Virus record (IMG/VR): IMGVR_UViG_3300029763_000196
From: a virus
Strand: one strand, 5' to 3'
Length of the DNA: 64,000 nucleotides
Made by a program: the position numbers and the translations under genes. Position 1 is the first letter of the stretch. Each line of letters opens with the position of its first letter. Of the stretch, positions 12,273 through 47,977 are shown piece after piece. The notes under the pieces were generated by a model that saw only the letters and a list, made by a program, of their open reading frames with translations, did not search any database and was not told where the DNA came from.

Positions 12273-12280
12273 ATAATAAG
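12273..12280. repeat. left copy of 8-bp flanking direct repeat ATAATAAG (putative target-site duplication of the Mu-like insertion)
   Basis: identical octamer at 47970..47977 immediately outside the inverted terminal transposase-site repeats. Confidence 0.5.
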
Positions 12281-12286
12281 GGGGAT

Positions 12287-12767
12287 AAAACGAAATGCGA
12301 TAAATTGAGTTATTCCGCATAAACGGTAATAGTTTTGATATACAAATAGTTATGTACGAATAGGAGAGGGGAGAGAGAAAAAACGAAAAGTTTACTCTGC
12401 TTTACTTTGGCTTTACTTTGGACTTTACTTTGAACGGTTTGAACGCCCGTCAACTTTACATGGCAATGGAGATGTGATAAACGGAGTAGAGTAGGGTAGG
12501 AGAAATGCGGTACATGGGCTGCGAAATGCTTTATTTAGGCGTTTTGCAGCCCTTTTTGTGCTTTATAGATAGATTGGCTTCCTACTTTTGAATAGTTGAA
12601 ATTTAGTGCTCAAAATAGCGAAAATAGGGATGGGGGAGGAGAGTGGCGATTTTAACGGGAATATTTCGTTTTTTGAGGATTGGATATGCAGTAGGATATG
12701 CGTTTGGGTATGCAAATTTGTCAAGAAAAAAACGAAATGTGTTGATTGGGTATGCGTTTGGATATGC
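12287..12767. promoter_or_regulatory. left-end region with transposase/repressor binding-site repeats
   Basis: AAAACGAAATGCGA (12287-12300), AAAAACGAAAAG (12377-12390), inverted ATTTCGTTTTTT (12663-12674), AAAAAACGAAATGTG (12725-12740); five GG(A/G)TATGC repeats (12682,12694,12706,12748,12760) spaced by CGTTTGG. Confidence 0.5.
12396..12433. repeat. tandem ~10-bp repeats CTTTACTTTG(G) x3.5
   Basis: gctttactttggctttactttggactttactttgaac seen directly. Confidence 0.6.
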
Positions 12768-12976
12768 AATTTAAGCAAAATTAAGATGGGTTGAATTATA
12801 CAAGTTACCATTTTACTACCCGTTTTTATGGCTTTATGTATTATTCAAGGGGGGAAAATACCATATAAAGAATAATGCAAATCAGCATATATGATAGAGT
12901 AATATGCTGATTTATAAAAAGGTATCTGGCAATTTCTGTTTTATTTGTGTTGAAAACGTGCGTGTGTCTCTTTTAT

Positions 12977-13633
12977 TTAGAACAATCTGTGCATACTTCC
13001 TAATACTGCGTATACTTTCTGTATCATGGAAATAGGAATGTCTTGCGGACTGTATTCCGGGCTTTTATTGGTGGGGATTAAGCGAATAAAATCTTTTTGG
13101 TCTGCTTTTCCTATTCGTTTAACAGTCCGATAGCTTTCTGTCACGATGGCATATATTTCTCCATAGGGGAGATATTGGACGGGATCGGTCATTTCTTTGA
13201 GGGCGATATAGTCTCCGTTGCTTAATTCGGGTTCCATAGAATGACCTGTAATATTACACCACACAACACCGGGTTTATTGTAAGGCTCAAAATTTATATA
13301 GTAATCCGGATTAATTGTTTGATCATTTAAAACGAGATCAAATCCACCGATAAAATCTACATTGTAGTAAGGTGCTCCCTTATATTCATAATTAATAGTC
13401 GGGAGTGATAGCGGCTGTGGGGTTTCCTTTAGCATAGAGCCTCGCCCTGTTATTAGCCATTCTAAATTGAGGTGAGGATAATTATCCGCAATAACGGAAA
13501 GCCATTTGCTTTGAATATCTGTTTTATTATTTATGGCTCGCCTAATCATGCCATCGCTCGCAGATATTGACTGTTCAAAAGATCTAACGCTAATCCCTTG
13601 ATTTTGTATAAATTGGCTAATTCGTTCAATCAT
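12977..13633 (-). CDS. CI/LexA-like repressor (XRE HTH + S24 peptidase domain) of the Mu-like phage
   Basis: N-terminal HTH ending LNLEWLITGRGSM; C-terminal GHSMEPEL...GDYIA...RIGK (Ser-Lys dyad peptidase S24 signature); leftward, adjacent to left end as in Mu c. Confidence 0.8.
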   Translation of the reverse strand: MIERISQFIQNQGISVRSFEQSISASDGMIRRAINNKTDIQSKWLSVIADNYPHLNLEWLITGRGSMLKETPQPLSLPTINYEYKGAPYYNVDFIGGFDLVLNDQTINPDYYINFEPYNKPGVVWCNITGHSMEPELSNGDYIALKEMTDPVQYLPYGEIYAIVTESYRTVKRIGKADQKDFIRLIPTNKSPEYSPQDIPISMIQKVYAVLGSMHRLF

Positions 13634-13783
13634 AATTTTATTCTTTCTGTGAAAATAATCACGATTTTGCTTTATATTGTGATAATTATCCTATATATTT
13701 GCATCACCGTATTAATATTACCGGCTGTAAAGGTAGTGAAAACGGCTGATATGACAATGAATAACTTTTAAAAACAATGTGAT

Positions 13784-13969
13784 ATGAGAAAGCGAATAGT
13801 AGTAGATCGTGGTGAGATCAAGAAAATCTCAAAGGATTTTAAAGTCACGAGCAAAGCCGTTTGGGAGGCACTGGTTTATCGCAGTAACAGCAGCAAGGCG
13901 AGGCTTATCCGTAAGGTAGCCCTTGAACGTGGAGGTGTTGAAATCGGAGATCAAAAGGAGGCGGTATGA
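13784..13969 (+). CDS. Ner/Cro-like small DNA-binding protein
   Basis: 61 aa, HTH-like ISKDFKVTSKAVWEAL, divergent from repressor, first gene of rightward early operon. Confidence 0.45.
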   Translation: MRKRIVVDRGEIKKISKDFKVTSKAVWEALVYRSNSSKARLIRKVALERGGVEIGDQKEAV

Positions 13970-14184
13970 AAAAGGTGTTGTTACTTCTCTTTGGAGATGA
14001 GTTCAGGGAGTATTTCTCTTTGACTGCGAGGCAAAAGTTTTACGTGTGGTATTTCTGCCTAAGTTTATGCTTTTTATGTATAACTGATGATAGTCCGATA
14101 TGGGCTATTATAGTGGTAGTCTTGAATTTTGCCAATGCCGCCCGCCTGATTAAAAAAGTACCATTAAATATAAAGGAGGATTAA
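13966..14184 (+). CDS. small membrane protein
   Basis: hydrophobic segments VLLLLFG and WAIIVVVLNFANAA. Confidence 0.3.
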   Translation: MKKVLLLLFGDEFREYFSLTARQKFYVWYFCLSLCFLCITDDSPIWAIIVVVLNFANAARLIKKVPLNIKED

Positions 14185-14186
14185 TC

Positions 14187-14594
14187 ATGAAAAGAGTATT
14201 TCACGTTAAAGAAGATGACACTATCAGAAAATTGTTTGAAGATCTGCTTGATGCGGAAAGAACCTTGTACTCCGCAAGATGCCCCGAAATCGTCAACGAG
14301 ATGGATGACACGCCCTCTCTATGGCTGTCTTTACAACCTCCTTATGTTCCCTCTCAATCTCGTTCACGGCGTTTTTTAGAGCTTGATGAAGAGCCTTACT
14401 TCCGCTTGGCCGGCCTTTTGGAATTGACGTATAGAAACTCAACTCCACCGGAACTCCAAACGCGGGGGTTAACCATCCGGATTCGGGATAATAAGGCTTA
14501 CTTCTGTATCTCAGGTTCAATCTCCTTAGCTGATTTGCAAACGCTGTGCGAACGTTGTCAGGCTGGGCAATCTCCTGATCAATGTAAAAAGTGA
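14187..14594 (+). CDS. hypothetical protein
   Basis: 135-aa ORF with SD (aaggagga) upstream. Confidence 0.4.
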   Translation: MKRVFHVKEDDTIRKLFEDLLDAERTLYSARCPEIVNEMDDTPSLWLSLQPPYVPSQSRSRRFLELDEEPYFRLAGLLELTYRNSTPPELQTRGLTIRIRDNKAYFCISGSISLADLQTLCERCQAGQSPDQCKK

Positions 14595-14708: not shown

Positions 14709-16781
14709 ATGGAGTATTTTGGAAAAACAGTATGTGCAACTTACGATGAATTAACATCAGGAAATGATCCGGTAATAAAACCCGGAACATTGAAGTCCTT
14801 GCAATACAGGAAACGTGTTGATGTTATTTCTCGTGGAGGCGGTGGAGGAAACATCGCCTTATATGTCTATTCCTCCCTACCTGAACGTTACCGGATCCGC
14901 TTTGAGCAAAAGTATGGTGATCCGGTGGAGCTAATCAAAGAGCAGTGCATGAAAGACAGGCTTAAAATAGATGATGCCGCCCGAACATTCTTTGAGGATT
15001 ACCGGTATGACAAGGCCGGCGAGATGGTGAGCCTTACCGAAAGGAAAAAAGAGGAATACACCATAAACGCCTCGGTACTGAACGAGTTGATATCGATCCT
15101 GAATGACCGGGAGGGCTATCGCAAGGCTTTGGGTGGAAGTACAAAGAAAGTATGGGAAACGATTATCGGAACGGCAGACCGCCTCCGTGATTCTTATGGC
15201 CACACACTGCCTGAAAACGCCGCCCGGCTGAAAGACAAGATAAACCAATACAAGAAAGAGGGTTACTCCTGCCTGATCAGCAAGAAAATGGGGAATGACA
15301 ATACCCTGAAAATAACCGAGGAAGCCGGTAACATGATTATAGCGTTAAAGCGGAGTAGCGTTCCCGTTTATACTGATGCTCAAATATTCGTGGAATTCAA
15401 CCGGATTGCAGAAGAGAAAGGCTGGAAGCAGCTCCGGAGCATTCAGAGCCTCCGTGGGTTCCTGAACCGTCCTGACATCGAACCGTTGTGGTACGATGCC
15501 GTTCACGGGGAGCTGAAAGCCCACCAGCGTTACAGCCGCAAGAATAAAACCGAGCTTCCTTCGATGCGTGACTCCCTATGGTACGGTGACGGTACGAAAA
15601 TCAATTTGTATTACAAGGATTACGACAAAGACGGTAAGCTGGTGGTTCGTACCACTCAGGTTTACGAGGTCATCGATGCTTATTCGGAGGTATTTTTGGG
15701 ATACCATATTTCAGACAGCGAGGACTACGAAGCGCAATATAATGCCTACCGCATGGCCGTTCAGGTATCAGGTCATAAGCCTTACGAGCTGGTGCATGAT
15801 AATCAGGGAGGCCACAAAAAGCTGCAAAACAGCAAATTCTTTGACAAGATTGTCGGCCATGTTCACAGAACCACGGCTCCATACAGCGGGCAGTCCAAAA
15901 CGATAGAGAGTGTTTTCGGACGTTTTCAGGCCGAGGTTCTGCACAAGGATTGGAGGTTCACCGGCCAAAATATCACCACCAAAAAGGACACGAGCCGCCC
16001 GAATTTAGAGCGTATCGAGGCGAACAAGGATAAACTTTACACTCTGGCCGAACTGAAAGCGGCATACGCTGCCGTCCGGAAAGAATGGAACGAAAGCAGG
16101 CATTTTGCTACCGGATTGAGCCGTATGGAAATGTACAAAAACAGCGTGAACCCTGATACCCCGGCGGTGGGTGTTCTCGACATGATCGAGATGTTTTGGG
16201 TGATGACGGACAAACCGTCCACTTATACTGACAACGGCCTGAAAATAACTATCAAGAAACGTGAGTTCACATACGAGGTGTACGAGGCCCCGGGTTTTCC
16301 CGATCACGAATTTCTCAGGAACAACAGGGGGCAAAAATTCTACACGATGTATGATCCTTATGACCATACCTCGGTACGGCTCTACAAGAAAGATAAGGCA
16401 GGAGAGCTGAGATTTGTACGGACGGCGGAGCCTTATATCGTTATCCACCGTAACATTCAGGAGCAGACCGAGGGCGAAATGGCCTTTATCCGCCGGAATA
16501 TCGAGGCGAACACGGAGGATCGCATCGAGCGTCAGGTGGGAGCCCGGATCATCGAGCAGGCGCACGGCGTGAGCATGGAACAACAGGGACTCAAACGTCC
16601 GAAACTGAAAGGTGTAAAGAAAGAAACGGAGCGTGAGATTGAACGCCGTGTCCGTCGGTACAGTCAGTATCCGGAGCAGCTCTCCGCCGGTAAGGTGACA
16701 AAACTGATAAGCAACATCACGTTTGACCAGCTGAATGGAGACATCCGCCTGAATGAAAAGAAAGTAGCAGGAAAATTATAA
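14709..16781 (+). CDS. MuA-like DDE transposase
   Basis: 690 aa; catalytic-core-like LWYGDGT ... VIDAYS ... SKTIESVFGRFQ spacing of Mu/rve-type DDE transposases; followed by MuB-like ATPase. Confidence 0.85.
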   Translation: MEYFGKTVCATYDELTSGNDPVIKPGTLKSLQYRKRVDVISRGGGGGNIALYVYSSLPERYRIRFEQKYGDPVELIKEQCMKDRLKIDDAARTFFEDYRYDKAGEMVSLTERKKEEYTINASVLNELISILNDREGYRKALGGSTKKVWETIIGTADRLRDSYGHTLPENAARLKDKINQYKKEGYSCLISKKMGNDNTLKITEEAGNMIIALKRSSVPVYTDAQIFVEFNRIAEEKGWKQLRSIQSLRGFLNRPDIEPLWYDAVHGELKAHQRYSRKNKTELPSMRDSLWYGDGTKINLYYKDYDKDGKLVVRTTQVYEVIDAYSEVFLGYHISDSEDYEAQYNAYRMAVQVSGHKPYELVHDNQGGHKKLQNSKFFDKIVGHVHRTTAPYSGQSKTIESVFGRFQAEVLHKDWRFTGQNITTKKDTSRPNLERIEANKDKLYTLAELKAAYAAVRKEWNESRHFATGLSRMEMYKNSVNPDTPAVGVLDMIEMFWVMTDKPSTYTDNGLKITIKKREFTYEVYEAPGFPDHEFLRNNRGQKFYTMYDPYDHTSVRLYKKDKAGELRFVRTAEPYIVIHRNIQEQTEGEMAFIRRNIEANTEDRIERQVGARIIEQAHGVSMEQQGLKRPKLKGVKKETEREIERRVRRYSQYPEQLSAGKVTKLISNITFDQLNGDIRLNEKKVAGKL

Positions 16782-16792: not shown

Positions 16793-17674
16793 ATGAACAG
16801 TACAATGACACAGCAAGAGAAAGACAATATCCGTGATGTTCTCCGGGTATATGCAGCGAAGTATTCCAGCCAAAAAAAGGCTGCGGCGAGTTTGAACGGC
16901 GTGTCTGCCGGTACACTGAGTGCCGTGATTAACGGCAAGTACGAGAATATCAGCGATGATATGTTCCGTAATATCATCGCTCAGATTACTCCGGCAGCCG
17001 CAGCTACCGGTTGGCAGCTGGTGGAAACGAACTCCTTTCAGGAAATATGGTATGCCCTGAGCGATGCGCAGGAGTTTAAAAAAGTCCGCTGGATCGTGGG
17101 TGGTGCGGGATGCGGCAAAACAACGACAGCCACCATGTACGCACAAAAAAATCATGAGGTGTTCGTCATCCTTTGTGATGAGGATATGCGGAAAGGTGAT
17201 TTTGTCCGGGAGATCGCCCGTAAACTCGGTTTCAAGACTTGCGGGATGCGTATCCGTGAAATATTGGACTTGGCCATCGAGAGCATCATACAGATGGAAA
17301 ATCCGCTTTTGGTATTCGATGAGGGTGACAAGTTGAACGATAACGTGTTCCACTACTTTATCAACCTGTATAACCGGTTGGAGGGCAAATGCGGGATTAC
17401 TTTCTTATCCACTGATTACATCCAGCACCGTATCGATTGCGGTTTGAACCATAACCGGAAAGGGTATAACGAGATTTATTCCCGTATCGGGCGTAAGTTC
17501 TTTGAGCTGGAGCCAACCTCCTGCAATGATGTGTTTGCCATTTGTCAAGCCAACGGCCTGACGGACAAGAAACAGATCGCAAATGTGATCGATTTGACGG
17601 AGAAATCGGAGTTTGATTTGCGATGCGTGAAAGATGCCATTCACCGGGAGAAAAAGGTGGCGGCAGCGAAATAG
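16793..17674 (+). CDS. MuB-like AAA+ transposition ATPase (target DNA activator)
   Basis: Walker A WIVGGAGCGKTTT, Walker B LLVFDEGD, 293 aa, immediately downstream of transposase. Confidence 0.8.
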   Translation: MNSTMTQQEKDNIRDVLRVYAAKYSSQKKAAASLNGVSAGTLSAVINGKYENISDDMFRNIIAQITPAAAATGWQLVETNSFQEIWYALSDAQEFKKVRWIVGGAGCGKTTTATMYAQKNHEVFVILCDEDMRKGDFVREIARKLGFKTCGMRIREILDLAIESIIQMENPLLVFDEGDKLNDNVFHYFINLYNRLEGKCGITFLSTDYIQHRIDCGLNHNRKGYNEIYSRIGRKFFELEPTSCNDVFAICQANGLTDKKQIANVIDLTEKSEFDLRCVKDAIHREKKVAAAK

Positions 17675-22010: not shown

Positions 22011-22358
22011 ATGCAGGAGCAGCTCGTAATACCGTTTTTTTGCCCGGAAATAGAGAAAGCCGGTAACCGCCGCAGAACACGCACGGTTGCCTCCTCCGAT
22101 GCTGCCATCACCTCCCGCCGTGACCGCCTCGAAAAGCGGAACCGCATCATGACCGCCCGTTATTACTATTGGACTGAGATCAAACGCCGCCGCTTCGATG
22201 ACGTGCTGAGAATCCTTTCCGATAACGAGTTCTTTGTCGAAGAGCGAACCATCAGCAACACGCTGGTGGAACAGGATGATTTTTACAATGAACTCCTGCG
22301 TTCCAAAGCATCCACCCGCAAGCTCAAAGCGATGTTTCCCGGCTTTGATTGGAACTAA
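22011..22358 (+). CDS. hypothetical protein
   Basis: 115-aa ORF. Confidence 0.3.
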   Translation: MQEQLVIPFFCPEIEKAGNRRRTRTVASSDAAITSRRDRLEKRNRIMTARYYYWTEIKRRRFDDVLRILSDNEFFVEERTISNTLVEQDDFYNELLRSKASTRKLKAMFPGFDWN

Positions 22359-22786: not shown

Positions 22787-22788
22787 AG

Positions 22789-23334: not shown

Positions 23335-23427
23335 CTGACGGATGACGGGGGCATCAAAAAGTCCGGGCTTTATACGGCGGAGCGGGATGTTAATCCGTAT
23401 ATAAAAGGAGGTTCTCAGAGCCTCCTT

Positions 23428-25962: not shown

Positions 25963-25965
25963 ATA

Positions 25966-37516: not shown

Positions 37517-37546
37517 TATTCAAACATTATTCAAACAGCGTTCAAA

Positions 37547-40500: not shown

Positions 40501-41779
40501 CAAGTTCGAGCAGACCGCCGAGCATATTCTTGCCGTGGCCGAGGAGGTGAATAAGATAGACCATACCATCAAGACCGCCGGTTGGATCACCACGGCAGAC
40601 GGTAACAAGCTGTGGGCTACCATAACCGAGGTGGACAGTCTTGGCAATCGTGTCACCACGCACGAGAGCAGCTTTCACGTGACGGCGCAGCAGATCAATG
40701 CTATCGTGAGCCGTATCGATAAGGCGGAGGATGATTTGGGAATCATAGACCATACCATCAAGACCGCCGGTTGGATCACCACGGCAGACGGCAACAAGCT
40801 ATGGGCTACCATTGACCGGGTGGATGTCCTTGGCAATCGTGTCACCACGCACGAGAGCAGCTTTCACGTGACGGCACAACAAATCAATGCCATTGTTAGC
40901 CGGGTGGATACGATAGACGGAACCATCAGCAAGGCTGGGTGGATTACTACTGCAGACGGCAATAAGTTATGGGCGAGCAAGACGCTTGAGAATGGTGATA
41001 CGATTGTTTCCTATATCAACCAAGCGGCGGACTCCGTGACAATAAACGCCAAGCATATCAAGCTGGAGGGGCTTGTAACTGCGAATGGTAACGTACAATT
41101 CACCACGGATGGAAAGATAATCGCCAAGAACGGCGAGTTCAGCGGAACGGTTGTCGGTGTGTCGGGTTCCTTCAAATCCTTAAACTGCGTGAATAATAGC
41201 GGGGATATTGTCGGAGGCATCTCCTTTGGCAGTGATGGAAAGATGTGGTTTAACGGTGACCTGTATCATCAGGGCTATGACTATGACAAAAAACGTTCTT
41301 TCCGTTTCTATACCTCCGATGTTTGGTGTCGTGGTAATTTCGGGGCAAGGCAACGCAATACACTGGTGGTATATGGCAGTTATGGTTACTATTACGTAAA
41401 TGGTTTGGATACGGAAACCGGTAAGGTATATGTCTCCCTACCCTCGGCCACGTCATCCAAAAACGAGACCTATTATACCATTCCGTTATACGGAACCACC
41501 GGGGATGCTTCCGGTTTCCCTGTTGACTTGGTGATCATAAAGGTTTCAGGGACGTACCGGTATTTATTGAGCGGGATGAAAAGCCAGCGGGTAACGGTCA
41601 TGAATGCGAATAATCAAAATAGTGAAATTTATATCTACTCGAATGGCAATAAGGTAAAATGGCCGGGCGGTACTATCGCTGATTGTAGGAATATAGCGGA
41701 TTTCATGAGTCCTTCACCGGCTTCTAACTTATTAGGCAGAGGATGGATAGTGGGCGCAATGAATGATAATAACTGGTAA
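37547..41779 (+). CDS. tail fibre / host-specificity protein with internal 63-aa tandem repeats and receptor-binding C-terminus shared with prophage A fibre
   Basis: 1410 aa; repeats IDHTIKTAGWITTADGNKLWAT...; C-terminal ~250 aa homologous to 127..1302. Confidence 0.7.
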   Translation: MELKIYNQQGVFKTAVSPSDSDRHVKEVMNDNILNLSFTLYEYVELGVNDYVDFEGERFTLLEDYKPEQKSTVEYAYSCKFYGIESELKKAKVLKMVDGDDELSFSYDATAAEHLQLICDNINRIKGTKNWVIGEVVSSANVNIEYDKIFCFDALSEIAKNFNTEWWIEGTTINLSRCEHGTPVSLGYGKGLLRLSRVENDTVPFFTRLYPLGSTRNIVASDYGHRRLQLPGGVRYVERNIHLGIVEQAEEEAFAYIFPKRIGTVTCVRTEEATGEDGNAFTIYYFTDEGLNFDPNTYEIEGLVKQVSFQGGELNGRDFEVNFNSETKEFEIITQFPYENQQLPGGLLIPKPGDEYILWNIRMPKEYYPLAEKEFEEAVQKHIESISIDTSVYKAPTDYIYLDENHIDLKLGRRVLLENEIYFPTGTHESRVTKISRRVNNTTDMDIECTYAVDYGRINQIESNIVDIQAAYKEQLNKDVLTVLKSWDSIDPTEYNVLSAVRTIRTIANSLSKLEKETADKYLRKDIPDTAKELETFLKGIKVIGEALVESLTVEKDSTFKGLLSSEVFTSGFPGGTGWALFWKEVLNAAGVKEKKAVMELDEMTVRGVMRVYEFVISQLMGENGTRLTTDMMRVDHIDAGTKTIYLDTEKGVLYNPFRPGDILMVQRFSVDGIIKQYELQVVTAKVGDTSKGEERLDSITYKNFVGDEGSVVFRDVLTRVDSATNSDRKGVIKQTSVEEGSPYLDVLYGMKTDPDNAVRLRLGRLAGIITYWWGQLQGYGLYSNNAYLLGDFRLRTGEDVRTKFEIMEGMLQSAMQSVVGTMTEEDNFLKNASFQDDMAYWERESDMALFDIGGQLLDLGVNFYSEKNKVADIDSFDGRFMLRIKRSHIRQLNADITKPEDGSVIFLTLKYHCAEEGILTAGFSGSAPYVEQVIPAGEGFDILEISGVWNGTGDFLLKFTGDLYIEQLTLTNHPLEDYKKEVSTKFEQTAEHILAVAEEVNKIDHTIKTAGWITTADGNKLWATITEVDSLGNRVTTHESSFHVTAQQINAIVSRIDKAEDDLGIIDHTIKTAGWITTADGNKLWATIDRVDVLGNRVTTHESSFHVTAQQINAIVSRVDTIDGTISKAGWITTADGNKLWASKTLENGDTIVSYINQAADSVTINAKHIKLEGLVTANGNVQFTTDGKIIAKNGEFSGTVVGVSGSFKSLNCVNNSGDIVGGISFGSDGKMWFNGDLYHQGYDYDKKRSFRFYTSDVWCRGNFGARQRNTLVVYGSYGYYYVNGLDTETGKVYVSLPSATSSKNETYYTIPLYGTTGDASGFPVDLVIIKVSGTYRYLLSGMKSQRVTVMNANNQNSEIYIYSNGNKVKWPGGTIADCRNIADFMSPSPASNLLGRGWIVGAMNDNNW
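40556..40980 (+). repeat. 189-bp tandem repeat x ~2.3 inside the tail-fibre gene
   Basis: near-identical DNA blocks starting 40556 and 40745, partial third copy to ~40980. Confidence 0.8.
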
Positions 41780-43026: not shown

Positions 43027-44472
43027 TTGATAAATATGACAAGCGATCAGGAAACCCGTGTGTTAGCGATGCTTTCGGCTTTTGAAGCCGGAAAGAAGAT
43101 CAGCGAACTCGATACTGCCTCCGGCAGCGTGAGCGATATGCGCATCGAGGTGCTGGACACGGACGGAGAGTCCAAAGTTATGAATTTGTCCGAGGCGGTT
43201 ACCACCGCCGCAAACGCCGTTTGTGGACGTTATTGGAATGAATCGAATTCCACGTACCGGGCTGCCGGTTATCACGGCAGCCTCGATATGCTCCGCAAGC
43301 TGCCAGAGCTGTTGGGACTTGGTTGTTACCTCGTTCAGGATGACCGTACCCGGCGCAAGCTGGATCCCACGAACCACTACCGTTTCGAGGACGGCACACC
43401 GGCGAAGCTGGACGGCACGATGGGACAGTATATGTGGTGTTGGAATATTGGTTTTTATTTTGCCGAGTGGAAAGTGGGTAATTTGAAATATTATGCCGTT
43501 TCCCTTTCTCCCATCAAAGGCAAACAGTGCGTGTATATTCCCGCCGGTGGCCTTTCCGCCCTCGGTGGTGGCGTGCTGGACAGGACGAACAATATCCTTT
43601 GTTCGGTTGTGAGTGATGCCGCCCAATATCGTGGTGGAAACAATGATGCAAGCCGGGACGGGACTTACCGCACGCAGTTGGGGATGGTTGCAACCAATAT
43701 GCAGTACCGTAATTTTTCAACTTATGCCCGCAAGCGTGGCGAGGGTTGGGATGCCAACTGGTACGTGGCTCAGGCGGTGGTTGAAATTCTTTTCATGATC
43801 ATATTCGGAACCCGCAATATGCAGGAGGCCGTGATTGCTGAAAAGGATAGCAACGGTCTGTATCAGGGTGGCCTCGGAGCCGGAACCACTAATATGCCGA
43901 ATTGGGATCAGTGGGGTTATTACCCGGTTGTTCCGACCTCTGCGGGTATTGAGTTGGGTGACGGTTGCGGTGAAACCACGTTCAACGTGCTAAAGGAGGA
44001 CGGCTCGCTGCATTATGCGGCAAAGGTTCCGGTGTTCTTTGGCCTGAAACATCCTTTCGGCCATATATGGAAAATTGTCCGGGGGCTTATCGATAACGTG
44101 GGTGATGAGAAATCCGAGGTTTATGTTGCCCCGTCCCTTTATGCCGGTTATGATGACAATTCGATTTCCGGTCTAATCAAGGTTTGCGAGGTTCCGAGAA
44201 CCGGCGGTTATATCAAACAGAAAAGTTACTACTTGCTTTGCGCCATGCCGACCGAAATCGGAGCGACCGCCTCGACTTATTTCTGTGACTATTTTTGGGA
44301 GAATTCAGCATCATCCAAAGGGCTTCGTGTCCGCCTCTCCGGTGCTGACGCTAACTATGGCACGCATGCGGGGGCGTTTGCTGCGAATGCGAACAATGCG
44401 GCCTCGGATTCGTATGCGTATGTGTCCGCTCCCCTCTGCTTTTTCGATGCGGATCCGGTGATGTCGGCCTAA
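43027..44472 (+). CDS. DGR target protein (tail/receptor-binding protein with C-terminal C-type-lectin-like variable region)
   Basis: VR (44321..44435) lies at the 3' end of this gene; encoded segment SGADANYGTHAGAFAANANNAASDSYAYVSAPL. Confidence 0.8.
   Translation: MINMTSDQETRVLAMLSAFEAGKKISELDTASGSVSDMRIEVLDTDGESKVMNLSEAVTTAANAVCGRYWNESNSTYRAAGYHGSLDMLRKLPELLGLGCYLVQDDRTRRKLDPTNHYRFEDGTPAKLDGTMGQYMWCWNIGFYFAEWKVGNLKYYAVSLSPIKGKQCVYIPAGGLSALGGGVLDRTNNILCSVVSDAAQYRGGNNDASRDGTYRTQLGMVATNMQYRNFSTYARKRGEGWDANWYVAQAVVEILFMIIFGTRNMQEAVIAEKDSNGLYQGGLGAGTTNMPNWDQWGYYPVVPTSAGIELGDGCGETTFNVLKEDGSLHYAAKVPVFFGLKHPFGHIWKIVRGLIDNVGDEKSEVYVAPSLYAGYDDNSISGLIKVCEVPRTGGYIKQKSYYLLCAMPTEIGATASTYFCDYFWENSASSKGLRVRLSGADANYGTHAGAFAANANNAASDSYAYVSAPLCFFDADPVMSA
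44321..44435 (+). repeat. DGR variable repeat (VR)
   Basis: 115 bp matching TR at 44679..44793 with 10 differences, every one at a TR adenine. Confidence 0.85.
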
Positions 44473-44678: not shown

Positions 44679-44793
44679 GGCTTCGTGTCCGCCTCTCCGG
44701 TGCTAACGCTAACAATGGCACGAATGCAGGGGCGTTTGCTACGAATACGAACAATGCAGCCTCGAATTCGAATGCGAATGTGTCCGCTCCCCT
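44679..44793 (+). repeat. DGR template repeat (TR)
   Basis: non-coding copy upstream of RT, rich in AAY codons in the VR reading frame (N A N N G T N ...); shared 3' GC-rich end GTGTCCGCTCCCCT. Confidence 0.85.
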
Positions 44794-44953
44794 ATACTTT
44801 GCAGTTAGGAAACGGTTAGATGGGGTGAAAGACCTTGCCACTTGGCAAAAGATGACGAACGCTCAAAAGGACGCTGGTAGGCCGGTAACGGTTCGAACGC
44901 TTCCGAGTAAGGCAAAGCAGACACTCAGACACTCAGAACCGCAGAAACAGACC

Positions 44954-46297
44954 ATGAAAAGGTATGGAAATTTGTTTGAACGAGTTGTCGAATATGGCAA
45001 TCTCGAACAGGCGTTTCACAACGCCGCCCGTCACAAAACTCGCCGAAGCGAAGTAATAGAGTACGGCTCCCATTTGGAGGCGAACCTATTACAGCTCCAG
45101 CGTGAACTTATCACCGGTACTTACCGCACCTCCGAATATAAGACTTTCATCATTTACGAACCCAAAGAGCGGAAGATCTTTAAACTGCCGTTCCGGGATC
45201 GTGTCGTTCATTGGGCGATAATGCAGGTTATTGAACCGATATGGCTCTCTAATTTCACCCATGATACATTCTCTTGCATACGTGGGCGTGGTATTCACCC
45301 TCTTTTATACAAGCTCCGCCGTGATTTGAAAGCGGATCCGGAGGGAACCCGGTACTGCCTGAAAATCGATGTGCGCAAATTCTATCCGAGTATAGACCAC
45401 GAGATCATGAAACAGGTAATCCGCCGAAAGCTGAAAGATGCCCGGCTGCTTGCTTTGCTTGACGGTATCGTGGACTCGGCAGAGAACGGAGTGCCTATCG
45501 GGAATTATTTATCCCAATTCTTTGCCAACCTTTATTTATCCGAACTGGATCATATCATGAAAGAAGAAATGGGCATCCGGTACTATTACCGCTTTGCCGA
45601 TGATATTGTCCTGCTGGATGGAAACAAGGAGAAGCTCCACGGAACCCTCGTGTTTATCAACCACTACCTGAATAATGAACGTGCTTTGAGTATAAAGCCG
45701 AATTATCAGGTTTTCCCGGTAGAGAGCAGGGATATTAATTACGTGGGATACGTGACGTTTCATGATTATTGCCTCGCCCGTAAGCAGAACAAGAAAAACC
45801 TCTGCCGTGAGGTGGCAAAATTACGCAAACGTGGGCTGAGTGATGAGGAGATCCGAATACAGGCATCCAGCCGGTTGGGGTTCATGCAGCATTGCAATAG
45901 CATTTATTTATTAAAAACTCTCAATATGAAAACATTCAGTGAAGTAACAAACAGCGGTGGTAATCTCACGGGAGATAAATACCACATTGATGACATTTTG
46001 AACAGGGAAATCCACCTGAAAGGTTTCGAGGTAAAAGAATCCAAGTATAAGGGTGAATGCCTGATCATTCAGTATGATATCTACGAGCAGGTAAAGGATA
46101 AAACCGGAGTTTTGCTCACTAACGAGGACGGCACTCCGAAAATGGATTGGGTGGAACATATCTCCTTTACCGGTTCGGAGGCTCTTATAAAACAGTTAAA
46201 GGATGTAGTATTGGATGAACCCTGTTCGGCAAAGATTATTAAACAACCAATCGGTGACCGGGGTAAATGCTTTTATAAGATAACCGATCCCGATTAA
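44954..46297 (+). CDS. DGR reverse transcriptase
   Basis: start chosen at MKRYGNLFERV (DGR RT-like N-terminus); RT motifs incl. YRFADDIVLL (YxDD), QG-like and thumb region; the track ORF from 44780 runs upstream through the TR. Confidence 0.88.
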   Translation: MKRYGNLFERVVEYGNLEQAFHNAARHKTRRSEVIEYGSHLEANLLQLQRELITGTYRTSEYKTFIIYEPKERKIFKLPFRDRVVHWAIMQVIEPIWLSNFTHDTFSCIRGRGIHPLLYKLRRDLKADPEGTRYCLKIDVRKFYPSIDHEIMKQVIRRKLKDARLLALLDGIVDSAENGVPIGNYLSQFFANLYLSELDHIMKEEMGIRYYYRFADDIVLLDGNKEKLHGTLVFINHYLNNERALSIKPNYQVFPVESRDINYVGYVTFHDYCLARKQNKKNLCREVAKLRKRGLSDEEIRIQASSRLGFMQHCNSIYLLKTLNMKTFSEVTNSGGNLTGDKYHIDDILNREIHLKGFEVKESKYKGECLIIQYDIYEQVKDKTGVLLTNEDGTPKMDWVEHISFTGSEALIKQLKDVVLDEPCSAKIIKQPIGDRGKCFYKITDPD

Positions 46298-46721: not shown

Positions 46722-46795
46722 ATGCCTATCGGGGGCAGGCTATAAAAATGCCCCCGGCCTGTAAGTAGTTATCTCACCCACATACTTACACAAAG

Positions 46796-46850
46796 ATGCG
46801 CCATATCGCACAGCCGGGGGCAAAATTCCCTCTGCTGCGATATGGCGCAT
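46796..46850. other. perfect 15-bp inverted repeat ATGCGCCATATCGCA / TGCGATATGGCGCAT around a GC hairpin
   Basis: seen directly between 46305..46721 and the Dam gene. Confidence 0.5.
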
Positions 46851-46908
46851 TTGTATGTTATGTGAGTGAGATGTCGCAAAGATAGTAACATTTAAAGGAA
46901 TAACAGCA

Positions 46909-47751
46909 ATGAAAACACCTATTTCTTACTACGGAGGCAAGCAAACCCTCCTGAAACATATTCTGCCTCTGATCCCAAATCATAAACTTTATACAGAGGC
47001 TTTCTGCGGCGGTGCTGCAGTATTGTTTGCCAAGCGTCCGGCTGATGGCGAAGTTATAAACGATATCAGTATGGATATAACGAACTTTTATTGGATGGCT
47101 AAAGTCTATTATCGTGACCTGAAACAGGAGATTGAGAAGACTTTGCACAGCCGGGATATGCACGCCCATGCCGGACATATCCTGCAGTATCCTCAATTCT
47201 TCCAACCGGTGCAGCGGGCGTGGGCTGTTTGGGCGTTGTGTAAAATGTCCTTTGCCAGCATGATGGACGGTTCATTCGGTTATGACTTTGGTGGTGGAAT
47301 GCCGAAAAAACTGCGTAATGCAAAGGATGAGTTCACGGAATGGCTATGCGCCCGGCTTGATAACGTGACCATAGAGAACCGGGATGCGCTGGATGTCATC
47401 TCCACTTATGACTCGCCCGATACGTTTCATTTTGTGGATCCGCCGTATATAAACAGTGATTGCGGCCATTACGAGGGTACATTTGATGAGTATTGCATGG
47501 AGAAGCTCCTGCAGCTTTTGGAGCAGGTGAAAGGTAAGTTCATGCTGACAATGTTTCCCCTGCCAATGATAGAGGAATACGCAAACAAAAACGGATGGAT
47601 AATCCACCGGGTAGAAAGAACCATCAGCGCATCAAAGACGAGCCGAAGAAAGCAGGAGGAATGGATGGTATGCAATTATGAAGAACACCCGCAGCGAACT
47701 TTGTTTGATTACAAAGACAGCAGCGATGTTGATGCAACAGATGCCTCCTAA
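46909..47751 (+). CDS. DNA adenine methyltransferase (Dam/D12 class)
   Basis: N-terminal YYGGK, FCGGAAV (motif I) and DPPY (motif IV) of the alpha-class N6A MTases. Confidence 0.8.
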   Translation: MKTPISYYGGKQTLLKHILPLIPNHKLYTEAFCGGAAVLFAKRPADGEVINDISMDITNFYWMAKVYYRDLKQEIEKTLHSRDMHAHAGHILQYPQFFQPVQRAWAVWALCKMSFASMMDGSFGYDFGGGMPKKLRNAKDEFTEWLCARLDNVTIENRDALDVISTYDSPDTFHFVDPPYINSDCGHYEGTFDEYCMEKLLQLLEQVKGKFMLTMFPLPMIEEYANKNGWIIHRVERTISASKTSRRKQEEWMVCNYEEHPQRTLFDYKDSSDVDATDAS

Positions 47752-47830
47752 ATACTGTATAAAGATAGTCATTTCTAATGAATTGCACAAATATTGGAAC
47801 GTATTTTTTATGTGAAAATGCAATAATTTT

Positions 47831-47876
47831 AAAGGCTTTCAAACACCATTCAAATGACGTTTGAAAGCCTTTTTAT
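47831..47876 (+). terminator. rho-independent terminator after the Dam gene
   Basis: 14-bp perfect stem AAAGGCTTTCAAAC / GTTTGAAAGCCTTT followed by TTTT. Confidence 0.6.
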
Positions 47877-47900
47877 ATCGTGCGTGTGCGATAATTTTTT

Positions 47901-47969
47901 CACATTTCGTTTTATACCCTGATTATCGCATTTCGTTTTTTATACCGCTCGCATTTCGTTTTGCCGATT
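47901..47969. promoter_or_regulatory. right-end transposase-binding-site repeats (inverted relative to left end)
   Basis: CACATTTCGTTTT, ATCGCATTTCGTTTTTT, TCGCATTTCGTTTT = reverse complements of the left-end AAAACGAAATG(C/T)G sites. Confidence 0.5.
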
Positions 47970-47977
47970 ATAATAAG
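47970..47977. repeat. right copy of ATAATAAG flanking direct repeat
   Basis: identical to 12273..12280. Confidence 0.5.

What the first reader, a model, noticed from the sequence alone, without database searches (positions are those of the whole stretch)
12273..47977. Mu-like transposable prophage inserted inside another prophage (phage-in-phage)
Genes at 3795..12155 and 48004..62159 are all leftward and together look like one early operon of a lambdoid-type prophage (RecT/Exo, HU, RuvC-like, MTases, RtcB, MazG, DUF3127, DUF2829). The ~35.7 kb block between them has its own repressor, MuA/MuB, Mu-type head genes, tail, DGR and Dam, and is clearly more GC-rich. Its two termini carry inverted arrays of the same AAACGAAATG(C/T)G site. 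The element is bracketed by an identical 8-mer ATAATAAG (12273-12280 and 47970-47977). Joining the flanks gives a ~143-bp intergenic spacer between the PAPS-reductase-like and DUF2829 genes. This would be a transposable phage caught in another phage's early region, probably inactivating or uncoupling that operon.
Basis: partly seen in the sequence, partly recalled or inferred. Interest (0 to 1): 0.75.

Follow-up and report, generated by a model that had tools for sequence, protein, structure and literature searches.

The report
Transposable phage inserted inside LoVEphage prophage
A 35.7-kb Mu-type "jumping" phage, a new relative of the gut Hankyphage, has landed inside a copy of the common gut Bacteroides phage LoVEphage; the nesting is real and cleanly proven, but it is what a randomly inserting phage is expected to do now and then.

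Summary
The finding is real. Both flanks (1-12276 and 47973-64000) are Bacteroides phage LoVEphage at 97-99.7% nucleotide identity. Removing 12277-47976 restores, base for base, the uninterrupted site of five other LoVEphage prophages.

The insert is 12277-47972 (35,696 bp) and has 4-bp target duplications (ATAA). The same termini occur at about 50 unrelated sites, and six of seven end pairs show perfect 4-bp duplications.

The element encodes:
- an S24 repressor
- a MuA/TnsB-fold DDE transposase
- a MuB-like ATPase
- Mu-type head genes
- an active-looking DGR
- a Dam methylase

It is collinear with Hankyphage, but proteins are only 27-78% identical and there is no nucleotide match to any deposited phage.

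The insertion cuts a 46-aa lipoprotein gene and splits LoVEphage's leftward early operon. An identical copy, with the same DGR variable repeat, sits at a chromosomal site in a related sample. True Hankyphage has independently inserted 6 kb away in another LoVEphage. About 1 in 150 flanks falling in LoVEphage fits random insertion.

Verdict: a new member of a known kind, of modest interest.

The parts
1..12276 (-). LoVEphage DNA, left flank. It holds late and lysis genes on the + strand (1-3753) and the distal part of the leftward early operon (3795-12155): DUF3127/SSB-like, RtcB, Dam-like, radical SAM, N6/N4 methylase and Tad2-like/DUF2829.
   Evidence: 98.4-99.7% nucleotide identity to LoVEphage MW660583, OY731433 and PV4-TP1. 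Gene names come from the records' annotation and precomputed Pfam hits.
11703..12155 (-). LoVEphage DUF2829 / Tad2-like gene. It is the first LoVEphage gene downstream of the insertion.
   Evidence: PF11195 on the identical gene in L005 and L154-L158. PV4-TP1 gp52 is annotated as a DUF2829 protein.
12152..12272 (-). C-terminal 40 codons plus stop of the disrupted LoVEphage small lipoprotein gene. The intact product is MKKILLIFTLLVLLTGCTAPRVYKKNRFTKQFQEADSMFTQKHLLE.
   Evidence: The reconstructed ORF is. It is annotated as gp53 in PV4-TP1 and as a CDS in OY731433. L155 and L156 carry a 53-aa call with a faint LPAM_1 hit.
12273..12276 (.). Left copy of the 4-bp target-site duplication, ATAA.
   Evidence: The empty site reads ...GTGTAAAG ATAA GTAGTATT... 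in five LoVEphage prophages and in PV4-TP1 and OY731433.
12277..47972 (+). The inserted transposable phage: 35,696 bp, GC 0.483, termini 5'-TAAGGGGGAT...GCCGATTATA-3'.
   Evidence: The termini are fixed by 10 right ends and 2 left ends with unrelated flanks and by further ends in genomes and IMG/VR.
12287..12300 (+). L1, the terminal transposase-binding-type repeat AAAACGAAATGCGA. It begins 10 nt from the left tip.
   Evidence: The distance from the tip is the same as R1 at the right end.
12378..12391 (+). L2-like degenerate repeat AAAAAACGAAAAGT, about 100 nt from the tip. Three GCTTTACTTTG units follow at 12399-12432.
   Evidence: Both features are conserved in position in Hankyphage p00.
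12663..12741 (.). Two further copies of the end-repeat core in inverted orientation: ATTTCGTTTTTT at 12663-12674 and AAAAAACGAAAT at 12727-12738, which overlaps the pattern hit AAACGAAATGTG at 12730-12741. Their role is unknown.
12977..13633 (-). Repressor candidate with a LexA/S24 self-cleaving peptidase domain. It reads towards the left end, as in Mu.
   Evidence: Peptidase_S24, E = 1.7e-12. It has no similarity to the Hankyphage repressor.
14709..16781 (+). MuA-type DDE transposase of 690 aa. The candidate catalytic triad is D294, D364 and E400.
   Evidence: phrog_310, E = 5e-92 over the full length. It is 54% identical to the Hankyphage 'Mu A-like transposase'. The triad is invariant in 28 homologues. 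The AF2 model matches TnsB and the Mu transpososome 4fcy at E about 1e-14 to 1e-16.
16793..17674 (+). MuB-like AAA+ target-DNA ATPase.
   Evidence: AAA_22, E = 3.8e-12, and Phage-MuB_C at 26.0 bits against a cut-off of 25. It is 59% identical to Hankyphage MuB-like.
20712..21380 (+). DUF3164 protein, a family typical of Mu-like early regions.
   Evidence: PF11363, E = 8.9e-12. The gene is called as 222 aa in other copies.
22355..28354 (-). Inverted head and packaging module. It holds a tail-terminator-like gene, a Mu gpG-like gene, a portal + Mu F + PBECR nuclease fusion (23428-25962), a Mu gp36-like gene, the large terminase, and an HTH small-terminase-like gene.
   Evidence: Portal_Mu 1.2e-69, Phage_Mu_F 1.5e-16, PBECR2 1.5e-13, Phage_tail_S 6.5e-10, Phage_Mu_Gp36 1.1e-6. 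TerL hits phrog_38 at 1.9e-65.
28503..30921 (+). Head protease/scaffold, major head protein and lysin/amidase.
   Evidence: phrog_11321 and phrog_80, and phrog_267 at 3e-33. ORF 30457-30921 is 78% identical to the Hankyphage 'lysin'.
33333..41779 (+). Tail module: tape-measure candidate (1241 aa), hub-like protein (153 aa) and a large tail protein (1410 aa).
   Evidence: Collinear tblastn matches to the Hankyphage tape measure, baseplate hub and minor tail protein. phrog_22546, E = 5.9e-226.
43036..44472 (+). DGR target gene, a tail protein. The variable repeat (VR) is at 44321-44442.
   Evidence: phrog_5302 'tail protein', E = 9.7e-74. VR and TR differ at 12 positions, all at TR adenines. Nine other copies have eight different VRs and an invariant TR.
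44679..46297 (+). Rest of the DGR: template repeat 44679-44800, RT-17 RNA motif 44831-44924, reverse transcriptase 44954-46297.
   Evidence: Rfam RF03020 scores 62.7 bits against a gathering score of 40.4. RVT_1, E = 1.6e-14.
46909..47751 (+). Dam-type N6-adenine DNA methyltransferase, the last gene before the right end, as in Hankyphage.
   Evidence: MethyltransfD12, E = 3.5e-20. The position matches the Hankyphage gene map.
47901..47961 (-). R3, R2 and R1: three contiguous end repeats with starts spaced 26 and 23 nt apart. R1 begins 10 nt from the right tip.
47973..47976 (.). Right copy of the 4-bp target-site duplication, ATAA.
47973..47992 (-). Orphaned start of the LoVEphage lipoprotein gene: the ATG at 47992-47990 plus 6 codons, now reading into the element's right tip.
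47973..64000 (-). LoVEphage DNA, right flank. It holds the proximal part of the leftward early operon: PAPS-reductase-like gene 48004-48786, C5 methylase, RecT 58632-59540 and a PDDEXK exonuclease 59537-60505. The divergent S24 repressor gene is at 62890-63660 (+).
   Evidence: 96.5-99.3% identity to six LoVEphage records. The repressor and integrases are placed by PV4-TP1 gp81-84.

Best explanation
A temperate, Mu-type transposable phage integrated by DDE transposition into the DNA of a resident LoVEphage, most likely an integrated prophage in a Bacteroides or Phocaeicola cell. The phage is a smaller, previously undeposited relative of Bacteroides Hankyphage.

Proposed mechanism:
1. Its MuA-like transposase binds the repeated AAAACGAAATGCG sites at the two ends. 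One terminal site plus an inner site lie on the left, and three contiguous sites lie on the right.
2. The MuB-like ATPase delivers a target DNA chosen with little sequence preference.
3. The two 3' ends are joined to target strands 4 bp apart.
4. Repair of the gaps leaves the ATAA duplication.

Steps 1-3 are inferred by homology with Mu. Only the end sites and the 4-bp duplication are seen directly.

The hit fell in codon 7 of a 46-aa lipoprotein gene. That gene lies between the PAPS-reductase-like and Tad2-like genes of LoVEphage's leftward early operon, about 14 kb downstream of the LoVEphage repressor/early-promoter region.

Shown:
- the identity of both phages
- the exact boundaries
- the 4-bp duplication
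- the empty site
- many other insertion sites
- a sibling copy with the same DGR variable repeat at a chromosomal site.

Inferred:
- The 35.7-kb insert separates the distal 8.4 kb of the LoVEphage operon from its promoter.
- The composite is about 107 kb, roughly 150% of a LoVEphage genome, so LoVEphage can probably no longer produce complete virions.
- The inner phage remains able to move.
For: - **Flanks are LoVEphage.** They are 97-99.7% identical to six LoVEphage records.
- **Empty site.** Deleting 12277-47976 gives a sequence collinear with uninterrupted LoVEphage prophages L154-L157 over 4,000 bp without gaps, and with L158 (cut at its contig end) over 2,902 bp. It is identical across the junction in all five, one of which lies in a 5.36-Mb chromosome.
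- **Fixed termini, varied flanks.** Ten right ends and two left ends in other contigs stop at exactly 47972 and 12277 with unrelated flanks. In all there are 24 distinct left flanks and 26 distinct right flanks.
- **Duplication length.** Paired ends give perfect 4-bp duplications in 6 of 7 cases: ATAA, CGTT, GATA, CTTT, CATA and TTTG.
- **Transposition genes.** The transposase hits phrog_310 at 5e-92, has an invariant D294/D364/E400, and its model matches TnsB and the Mu transpososome 4fcy and 1bcm. MuB_C and AAA_22 are present, as are Mu portal, F, gpG, gp36 and DUF3164.
- **Relation to Hankyphage.** The end-site layout is conserved in position. Gene order is collinear with 22 of 40 ORFs matching.
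- **Recent mobility.** A copy with 0 mismatches in 14,938 bp and the identical VR sits next to dnaN in another contig, whereas every other copy examined has a different VR.
- **Independent sightings.** The same LoVEphage junctions appear in two other assemblies, L005 and L146.
Against: - The window contains no bacterial DNA, so the integrated state of the outer phage is not shown here.
- No expression, read-depth or induction data were available, so the effect on LoVEphage and the activity of this particular copy are inferences.
- One of seven end pairs (L183/L186, a 36-kb contig that is nearly all phage) shows no clean duplication.
- The exact junction was not found in the JGI metagenome or IMG/VR scans, so the event is rare or private.
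Confidence: 0.93

Rival explanations
1. Assembly artefact: a metagenome assembler joined LoVEphage and an unrelated Mu-like phage at short shared sequences, so the nesting does not exist in any cell.
For: All related sequences are metagenome contigs. Several contigs break exactly at the element's right end (L148 and L149), which shows that assemblers struggle here.
Against: - Both junctions fall at the exact element termini seen at about 50 other sites.
- The two flanks are adjacent in the reference phage and share exactly the 4-bp overlap expected of a duplication.
- The left and right junctions were recovered separately in independent assemblies, L005 and L146.
- A chimera would not reproduce a precise duplication.
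Confidence: 0.02
2. Mosaic ancestry: the block is an old recombinational module of this LoVEphage lineage (a hybrid phage), not a recent transposition.
For: Phage genomes are mosaic. LoVEphage is variable right next to the site: MW660583 lacks homology to window 10370-12276 and 47973-48218.
Against: - Five LoVEphage prophages that are 99.4-99.97% identical in the flanks lack the block and have the exact empty site.
- The block has transposon ends and a duplication.
- The same block with an identical VR sits at a chromosomal site.
- GC jumps from 0.38 to 0.48 at the boundaries.
Confidence: 0.01
3. Non-random nesting: phages of the Hankyphage group preferentially hit, or are selectively retained in, LoVEphage's early region. 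Possible reasons are that MuB-type targeting favours AT-rich, silent prophage DNA, or that crippling a competitor prophage benefits the cell or the incoming phage.
For: A second, independent insertion exists. True Hankyphage (99.6% to p00) abuts LoVEphage DNA at the position equivalent to window 54006, only 6 kb away in the same leftward operon. The LoVEphage flanks are AT-rich, with GC 0.38.
Against: - Only 1 of about 150 distinct flanks of the two phages falls in LoVEphage. That is close to the roughly 1.4% of a 5-Mb genome that a 71.5-kb prophage occupies.
- Target 4-mers show no strong consensus.
- The window itself was selected for containing the event and cannot be counted.
Confidence: 0.07
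4. The target was not an integrated prophage but replicating or episomal LoVEphage DNA. The composite would then be a dead-end molecule caught in a lytic or co-infected cell rather than a stable lysogen.
For: The window shows no bacterial flank. PV4-TP1, a LoVEphage-type phage, is annotated with a ParA-like partition gene.
Against: - The junction was assembled at contig-level coverage in at least two other assemblies, which argues for a clonal, heritable state.
- LoVEphage is found inside Mb-sized chromosomal contigs in many genomes.
- The contigs carrying the junctions extend more than 40 kb beyond the window on each side. Together that exceeds the remaining 43 kb of LoVEphage (arithmetic).
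Confidence: 0.06

Closest known systems
Bacteroides phage Hankyphage p00 (BK010646; Benler et al. 2018, PMC6199706; Vendrell-Fernandez et al. 2025, PMC12135933)
   Same: - The gene order is the same from end to end: leftward repressor, MuA, MuB, early genes with DUF3164, inverted head/packaging block, protease, capsid, lysin, tail, DGR target-VR-TR-RT, and Dam at the right end.
- The left tip is the same, TAAGGGGG, and the end sites have the same positional layout.
- Insertion is non-site-specific.
- End pairs checked here also gave 4-bp duplications for Hankyphage: CTTT and GATG.
   Different: - It is 35.7 kb against 42.8 kb.
- There is no nucleotide match by megablast.
- Proteins are 27-78% identical, with MuA at 54%, and 18 of 40 ORFs have no match.
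- The repressor is an S24/LexA type rather than the CI-like RepC_HP.
- The end-site core is AAACGAAATGCG rather than AAACGATGCGT.
- The DGR target is 478 aa rather than about 2,245 aa.
- There is no thymidylate synthase.
- Portal and Mu F are fused and carry a PBECR nuclease domain.
Escherichia phage Mu
   Same: - The transposase has a MuA/TnsB fold and sits next to a MuB-type ATPase.
- The left-end sites are split and the three right-end sites are contiguous.
- The repressor reads towards the left end.
- Mu-type portal, F, gpG and gp36 genes are present, as is a DNA-modification gene at the right end.
- Insertion is quasi-random with a short duplication.
   Different: - The duplication is 4 bp rather than 5 bp.
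- The tips are TA...TA rather than TG...CA.
- There is no detectable sequence similarity of the transposase to MuA in the PDB; the match is by fold only.
- The tail module matches Hankyphage tail genes (tape measure, hub, minor tail protein) rather than Mu-type tail genes; tail morphology was not tested.
- It carries a DGR.
- The host is in the Bacteroidales.
Transposable phages of Porphyromonas gingivalis, candidate family 'Alisviridae' (Matrishin et al. 2023, PMC10367356)
   Same: That candidate family includes Hankyphage p00. [quoted passage not shown]
   Different: The host genus and sequences differ. Formal family assignment by whole-proteome methods was not done here.
Classical Mu insertions into other prophages (for example lambda::Mu lysogens used in phage genetics; from general knowledge, not checked in the paper library)
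   Same: A transposable phage lands inside a resident prophage, disrupts a gene, is polar on the operon, and makes the composite too large for the outer phage's head.
   Different: Those were laboratory constructs in E. coli. This is a natural event between two prevalent human-gut Bacteroidales phages.
Bacteroides phage LoVEphage (Van Espen et al. 2021, PMC8525569), the outer element
   Same: The flanks are 97-99.7% identical and collinear with LoVEphage genomes of about 71.5 kb. The paper describes LoVEphage as temperate, with a repressor and integrases, and as a prophage in B. dorei.
   Different: This copy is interrupted by 35.7 kb and lacks an intact small lipoprotein gene.

Membership tests
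Mu-like transposable phages (functional class) | DDE transposase of the MuA/TnsB type | tested here: met
   phrog_310, E = 5e-92. D294/D364/E400 are invariant. The AF2 model (pLDDT 74) matches TnsB 7svw at 1.7e-16, Mu transpososome 4fcy at 3.8e-14, and the MuA core 1bcm/1bco at TM about 0.6. Pfam rve is only 19.7 bits, below the 32.6 cut-off, and there is no sequence hit to the PDB.
Mu-like transposable phages (functional class) | MuB-type AAA+ ATPase encoded next to the transposase | tested here: met
   AAA_22, E = 3.8e-12, and Phage-MuB_C at 26.0 bits against a cut-off of 25.
Mu-like transposable phages (functional class) | Inverted arrays of repeated transposase-binding sites at both ends | tested here: met
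   Five matches against 1.1 expected, with + copies at and near the left end and three - copies at the right tip. L1 and R1 both begin 10 nt from the tips. The layout is conserved in relatives. Binding itself was not tested.
Mu-like transposable phages (functional class) | Insertion at many unrelated sites with a short, fixed-length target duplication | tested here: met
   There are 24 distinct left flanks and 26 distinct right flanks. Six of seven end pairs have perfect 4-bp duplications. The length is 4 bp, not Mu's 5 bp.
Mu-like transposable phages (functional class) | Mu-type head morphogenesis genes (portal gp29 family, Mu F, gpG, gp36) | tested here: met
   Portal_Mu 1.2e-69, Phage_Mu_F 1.5e-16, Phage_tail_S 6.5e-10, Phage_Mu_Gp36 1.1e-6.
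Mu-like transposable phages (functional class) | 5'-TG...CA-3' termini and a 5-bp duplication, as in Mu itself | tested here: not met
   The termini are 5'-TA...TA-3' and the duplication is 4 bp. This separates the element from Mu proper, not from the class.
Mu-like transposable phages (functional class) | Replication by replicative transposition during lytic growth, with packaging of host flanks | not testable with these tools
   There is only indirect support. An identical sibling copy sits at a second site, and contigs break at the element's end.
Hankyphage (genus or species level) | At least about 70% intergenomic nucleotide similarity to p00, the genus criterion used in PMC12135933 | tested here: not met
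   Megablast of the whole element against 50,697 phage records, which include p00, found no match beyond two short 74-77% pieces in unnamed virome contigs. Proteins are 27-78% identical.
Hankyphage (genus or species level) | Collinear genome plan with a DGR acting on a tail gene near the right end | tested here: met
   All 12 TR/VR differences are at adenines, and VRs are diversified across copies.
Candidate family 'Alisviridae' (Hankyphage plus P. gingivalis transposable phages) | Conserved termini with 4-bp bounding repeats; non-site-specific insertion | tested here: met
   The feature is described in PMC10367356.
Candidate family 'Alisviridae' (Hankyphage plus P. gingivalis transposable phages) | Whole-proteome clustering with the family's members | not tested
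   Only pairwise tblastn to p00 and transposase hits to Porphyromonas phages were done.
LoVEphage (outer element) | High nucleotide identity and collinearity with LoVEphage genomes on both sides of the insert | tested here: met
   Identity is 96.5-99.7% over 12.3 kb and 16 kb. The join is gap-free over 4 kb.
Diversity-generating retroelement | Reverse transcriptase plus a template/variable repeat pair that differs only at template adenines | tested here: met
   RVT_1, E = 1.6e-14. 12 of 12 mismatches are at TR adenines. In nine other copies 12-17 changes are all at TR adenines and the TR is invariant. The RT-17 RNA motif lies between TR and RT.
Diversity-generating retroelement | Accessory protein (Avd type) | tested here: inconclusive
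   The 138-aa ORF after the RT (46305-46721) has no Pfam, PHROG or NCBIfam hit.

The most novel reading that the evidence does not exclude
The nesting is not neutral. Two different Hankyphage-group phages have independently landed within 6 kb of each other in LoVEphage's silent, AT-rich early-left operon.

This could mean that gut transposable phages preferentially target resident prophages or are preferentially retained there. They would then disable a competitor: the composite is 150% of LoVEphage's genome size.

In this orientation the inner phage's constitutively expressed repressor operon also reads out of its left end. It could read straight into LoVEphage's Tad2-like anti-defence gene and DNA-methylase genes, switching them on in the lysogen.
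Probability: 0.07. Interest if true: 0.6.

Novelty: new member of a known kind. Interest (0 to 1): 0.3.

Why it matters
**A clean natural example.** This is a fully documented case of one prevalent human-gut phage inserted in another, with the empty site, the duplication, a sibling copy and an independent second case all in hand. It shows that Hankyphage-type transposable phages can knock out or remodel resident prophages in Bacteroidales. Such events will confuse prophage-boundary callers and virome binning: a 107-kb 'phage' that carries two repressors, two DGR reverse transcriptases and two capsid sets.

**An overlooked phage lineage.** The inner phage is very widespread. Its Dam protein is indexed in 5,069 blocks of the sequence collection. 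Its ends are found in Phocaeicola, Bacteroides and Alistipes genomes. It has no nucleotide match to any deposited phage genome, and NCBI names homologues of its transposase 'kinase'.

**Limits.** None of this changes how transposable phages are understood. A quasi-random inserter is expected to hit a 71-kb prophage about once per hundred insertions.

Tried and rejected
- **Over-short end pattern.** A 14-nt end-repeat core searched in IMG/VR was too unspecific. It was replaced by a 33-nt degenerate pattern that matches both ends.
- **Exact junction scans.** The exact LoVEphage/element junction pattern found nothing in JGI metagenome contigs or in IMG/VR, although it matches the window. A 100%-identical contig from a JGI sample (L146) was still retrieved by protein look-up, so these zero results reflect what those collections hold.
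- **Look-up with the wrong start.** The DGR target gave nothing from the TTG start. The ATG start worked.
- **Sequence searches of the transposase against the PDB.** A single sequence and a two-sequence profile found nothing relevant. Only the fold comparison linked it to MuA and TnsB.
- **Hankyphage duplication length from induced-phage records.** BKO1-TP1 and BX-TP2 were uninformative because their two flanks do not come from one insertion. IMG/VR end pairs were used instead.
- **Promoter and terminator scans.** These use sigma-70-type rules that do not fit Bacteroidetes, so I drew no conclusion on read-through or polarity. I noted only a 16-bp hairpin at 12516-12552 and a 20-bp hairpin at 47831-47872.
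- **5-bp duplication rejected.** Either 5-bp reading needs a mismatch and makes L1 and R1 asymmetric. Six independent pairs give 4 bp.
- **8-bp duplication rejected.** The empty site has ATAAG once, not ATAATAAG.

Full report

Yes.
- GC content is 0.384 in 1-12276, 0.483 in 12277-47972 and 0.386 in 47973-64000.
- The motif AAACGAAATG(C/T)G occurs five times in the window against 1.1 expected, and 0 of 100 shuffles reach five. One + copy is at the left tip, one + copy is about 450 nt inside, and three contiguous - copies are at the right tip.
- The 8-mer ATAATAAG is present at both stated positions.

**2. What are the flanks?**

Both flanks are Bacteroides phage LoVEphage.
- Window 48000-64000 matches six LoVEphage-type records at 96.5-99.3% over 98-100% of its length. 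Window 1-12276 matches them at 98.4-99.7%.
- LoVEphage is a temperate Bacteroides/Phocaeicola phage of about 71.5 kb, reported in 14.4% of human gut viromes, with a repressor and two integrases (PMC8525569).
- In the inducible relative PV4-TP1, the S24 repressor gp81 and the integrases gp83 and gp84 lie just beyond the window's right end. Window 62890-63660 corresponds to the repressor.
- 'Lambdoid' is only an analogy.

**3. Is there an empty site?**

Yes, and it is exact.
- In PV4-TP1 and OY731433 the two flanks abut with a 4-base overlap.
- Looking up the window's PAPS-reductase-like protein returned five uninterrupted LoVEphage prophages. One lies in a 5.36-Mb chromosome, CP072239.1.
- The window with 12277-47976 removed aligns to four of them (L154-L157) over 4,000 bp without a gap at 99.4-99.7%. 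It aligns to the fifth (L158, cut at its contig end) over 2,902 bp at 99.97%. It is identical across the junction in all five: GGAGTGTAAAG-ATAA-GTAGTATTTTC.

**4. Exact boundaries and duplication**

- Ten contigs that carry the identical Dam protein all end the homology at ...GCCGATTATA, followed by ten unrelated flanks. Two contigs that carry the identical transposase begin the homology at TAAGGGGGAT....
- The element is therefore 12277-47972 (35,696 bp), and the duplication is ATAA.
- With these limits the first repeat on each side (L1 and R1) begins exactly 10 nt from its tip, and both tips start 5'-TA.
- A degenerate pattern that matches both ends found more copies in species-representative genomes (Phocaeicola massiliensis DSM 17679, an Alistipes MAG, and Bacteroides and Phocaeicola MAGs) and in IMG/VR.
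- Seven end pairs are available. Six have perfect 4-bp duplications: ATAA, CGTT, GATA, CTTT, CATA and TTTG. One pair, from a 36-kb contig that is almost entirely phage, has none.
- Across 24 distinct left and 26 distinct right flanks the target 4-mers show no strong consensus.
- The 8-mer is the 4-bp duplication plus a coincidence. The element starts with TAAG and ends with ATA, and the target read ATAA|G.

**5. What is the insert?**

It is a temperate, Mu-type transposable phage. From left to right:
- an 82-aa ORF and an S24/LexA-type repressor, both reading leftwards
- small early ORFs
- a 690-aa transposase
- a MuB-like ATPase (AAA_22; Phage-MuB_C above its cut-off)
- early genes including DUF3164
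- an inverted block with a tail-terminator-like gene, gpG-like, a portal-MuF-PBECR nuclease fusion, gp36-like, TerL and an HTH small-terminase-like gene
- protease, capsid and lysin
- tape-measure candidate, hub and a 1410-aa tail protein
- a DGR
- Dam.

The transposase is weak against Pfam rve (19.7 bits, below the cut-off) and has no sequence hit in the PDB. Other evidence is strong:
- It matches phrog_310 over its full length at 5e-92.
- D294, D364 and E400 are invariant in 28 homologues.
- Its AlphaFold model (mean pLDDT 74) matches CAST and Tn7 TnsB and the Mu transpososome at E = 1e-16 to 1e-13. It matches the MuA catalytic core at target TM about 0.6.

The DGR is complete in the parts that can be recognised:
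- VR 44321-44442 lies in the 3' end of a tail gene.
- TR is at 44679-44800.
- All 12 of 12 VR/TR differences are at TR adenines.
- An RT-17 RNA motif lies between TR and RT.
- The RT follows.

**6. Relation to known phages**

- The closest deposited phage is Hankyphage p00, with the transposase 54% identical.
- The two genomes are collinear, with 22 of 40 ORFs matching at 27-78%.
- They share the left tip TAAGGGGG and the positional layout of end sites: L1, then L2 about 90 nt further in, then GCTTTAC repeats; and R1-R3 contiguous.
- There is no nucleotide-level match to any of 50,697 phage records.
- The repressor is of a different type, the end-site core differs, and the genome is 7 kb shorter.
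- It is therefore not a Hankyphage in the genus sense used by PMC12135933. It is a new lineage of the same group.
- The 4-bp duplication is not new. 4-bp bounding repeats were reported for the P. gingivalis transposable phages placed with Hankyphage in the candidate family 'Alisviridae' (PMC10367356).
- For Hankyphage itself the 2018 paper states 5 bp (PMC6199706). The two informative IMG/VR end pairs I checked show 4 bp, CTTT and GATG.

**7. What did the insertion hit?**

- The insertion is not in a spacer. Between the PAPS-reductase-like gene and the DUF2829/Tad2-like gene lies a 46-aa ORF with a textbook lipoprotein signal, MKKILLIFTLLVLLTGC. It is annotated in PV4-TP1 and OY731433, and some LoVEphage records list a lipoprotein among the annotations under the aligned flank.
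- The insertion falls in codon 7. It leaves the ATG and six codons at 47992-47973 and the remainder at 12272-12152.
- The following are inferences:
  - The 35.7-kb insert separates the distal 8.4 kb of the operon from the early promoter region. That stretch holds the Tad2-like gene, methylases, radical SAM, RtcB, MmcB-like, a pyrophosphohydrolase and an SSB-like gene.
  - The composite is about 107 kb against 71.5 kb, about 150% of unit length, so LoVEphage is unlikely to package a complete genome.
  - The inner phage's repressor operon points the same way as the downstream LoVEphage genes, so read-out is conceivable.
- I could not test any of these. The promoter and terminator scans use rules that do not fit Bacteroidetes.

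**8. Is the inner phage recently mobile?**

- The exact DGR target protein, including the window's VR, was found in two contexts.
  - L146 (a JGI 3300029767 contig) is 100% identical to the window over 21,437 bp and carries the same right junction.
  - L145 (a 308-kb JGI 3300029414 contig) and L147 (ENA SAMN05971426) carry the right 14.9 kb of the element next to chromosomal genes (a 248-aa gene, DUF3127, dnaN, an RNase T-like gene, coaBC, a recN-like gene). L145 has 0 mismatches and L147 has 10 mismatches and one gap.
- Every other copy examined has its own VR, with 12-17 changes, all at TR adenines, and an invariant TR. The window copy and the dnaN-side copies share one VR.
- They are therefore siblings separated by very little time.
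- Contigs L148 and L149 stop exactly at the element's end plus the one base common to both flanks. An assembler does this when two flanks coexist in a sample.
- The same left junction is also present in L005 (ENA SAMN05971505; 99.95% over 11.2 kb).

**9. Is nesting special?**

Probably not.
- I compared all fetched end flanks of both phages with a full LoVEphage genome. This turned up one more case. IMG/VR contig 3300008571_000080 has the right end of true Hankyphage (99.6% to p00, ending at its last base) joined to LoVEphage DNA that equals window 54006-57107 (99.0%). The insertion lies inside the 151-aa ORF at 53875-54330.
- That is one hit among about 150 distinct flanks. It is close to the roughly 1.4% of a 5-Mb genome that a 71.5-kb prophage occupies.
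- Two hits in the same operon are suggestive, but the window's own event was selected for and cannot be counted.

**10. Rivals**

- **Misassembly** is very unlikely. The junctions are at exact transposon tips, the flanks overlap by the duplication, and the two junctions were recovered in separate assemblies.
- **Ancestral mosaicism** is excluded by near-identical empty sites and by the sibling copy elsewhere.
- **Insertion into non-integrated LoVEphage DNA** cannot be excluded from the window. It is disfavoured because contigs with the junctions extend more than 40 kb beyond each side of the window, and because LoVEphage is routinely chromosomal.

**11. Verdict**

The object is a new, widespread but undeposited lineage of Hankyphage-group transposable phages, caught inside LoVEphage. 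It is a well-documented instance of a known behaviour, not a new kind of system.

Noticed in passing
L228 (IMGVR_UViG_3300008571_000080) 1-7844; equivalent to window ~54006: An independent nested case. The right end of true Hankyphage (99.6% to p00) is joined to LoVEphage DNA (99.0% to window 54006-57107). The insertion lies inside the 151-aa ORF at 53875-54330, 6 kb from the insertion studied here.
   Followed up: yes
L145 (JGI 3300029414 contig Ga0243798_100024) and L147, versus window 33036-47973: The same phage clone sits at a chromosomal site next to dnaN. L145 has 0 mismatches in 14,938 bp, L147 has 10, and both carry the identical DGR variable repeat. Contigs L148 and L149 break exactly at the element's end, which suggests that two flanks coexist in some samples.
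   Followed up: partly
L237/L243 and L216/L246 (IMG/VR Hankyphage end pairs): Hankyphage p00-type insertions show 4-bp duplications (CTTT and GATG) with the deposited termini. The original description states 5-bp direct repeats (PMC6199706). A third pair showed none.
   Followed up: partly
window 14709-16781 and homologues P0002, P0030, P0057, P0061, P0090, P0098: NCBI and UniRef name homologues of this transposase family 'kinase'. Pfam and NCBIfam barely detect it (rve at 19.7 bits). A separate 685-aa lineage at about 61% identity is very common in Bacteroides genomes and is closer to this phage than Hankyphage is.
   Followed up: no
window 23428-25962 (-): A single 844-aa ORF fuses a Mu-type portal, a Mu F domain and a C-terminal PBECR2/3 (Barnase-EndoU-ColicinE5/D-RelE-like) nuclease domain. 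In Hankyphage the portal and Mu F are separate genes and no nuclease domain is annotated.
   Followed up: no
window 44831-44924 (+): The Rfam RT-17 RNA motif (62.7 bits) lies between the DGR template repeat and the reverse transcriptase start.
   Followed up: no
window 54517-54679 (-): A borderline Rfam tRNA hit (29.5 bits against a gathering score of 29) spans 163 nt in LoVEphage DNA. ARAGORN finds no tRNA anywhere in the window, so this is possibly a false positive.
   Followed up: no
window 12399-12432 and L159 (Hankyphage) ~120-150: Three tandem GCTTTACTTTG units lie just inside the L2-like site. The GCTTTAC core and its position are conserved in Hankyphage although the surrounding sequence has diverged. 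Function is unknown; they could be a host-factor or transposase accessory site.
   Followed up: no
window 12682-12772: Six GG(A/G)TATGC motifs in two clusters, together with an inverted pair of end-repeat cores (12663-12674 and 12727-12738), lie inside the 82-aa leftward ORF (12563-12811). This raises the question of whether the stretch is coding, regulatory, or both.
   Followed up: no
window 10370-12276 and 47973-48218 versus MW660583.1 35700-36900: The LoVEphage reference MW660583 has a different segment here, about 1.2 kb instead of about 2.15 kb. The insertion therefore lies in a naturally variable cassette of the early operon that includes the Tad2-like gene.
   Followed up: no
L307 (PQ571302.1 PV4-TP1) 12946-14160: An inducible LoVEphage-type phage carries an IS256-family transposase gene inside its genome. 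Small mobile-element insertions in this phage are evidently tolerated.
   Followed up: no
window 40556-40713 and 40745-40902: A direct repeat of about 160 nt (91% identity) lies inside the 1410-aa tail protein gene of the inner phage.
   Followed up: no
L015 (CP032819.1), L137/L141 (Alistipes MAG), L136/L138 (Phocaeicola massiliensis): The same phage occurs in hosts outside Bacteroides and Phocaeicola. The Alistipes MAG carries identical end sequences and CP032819.1 an identical Dam protein. This suggests a very broad host range, like Hankyphage. The left-end region of the Alistipes copy is only about 76% identical.
   Followed up: no
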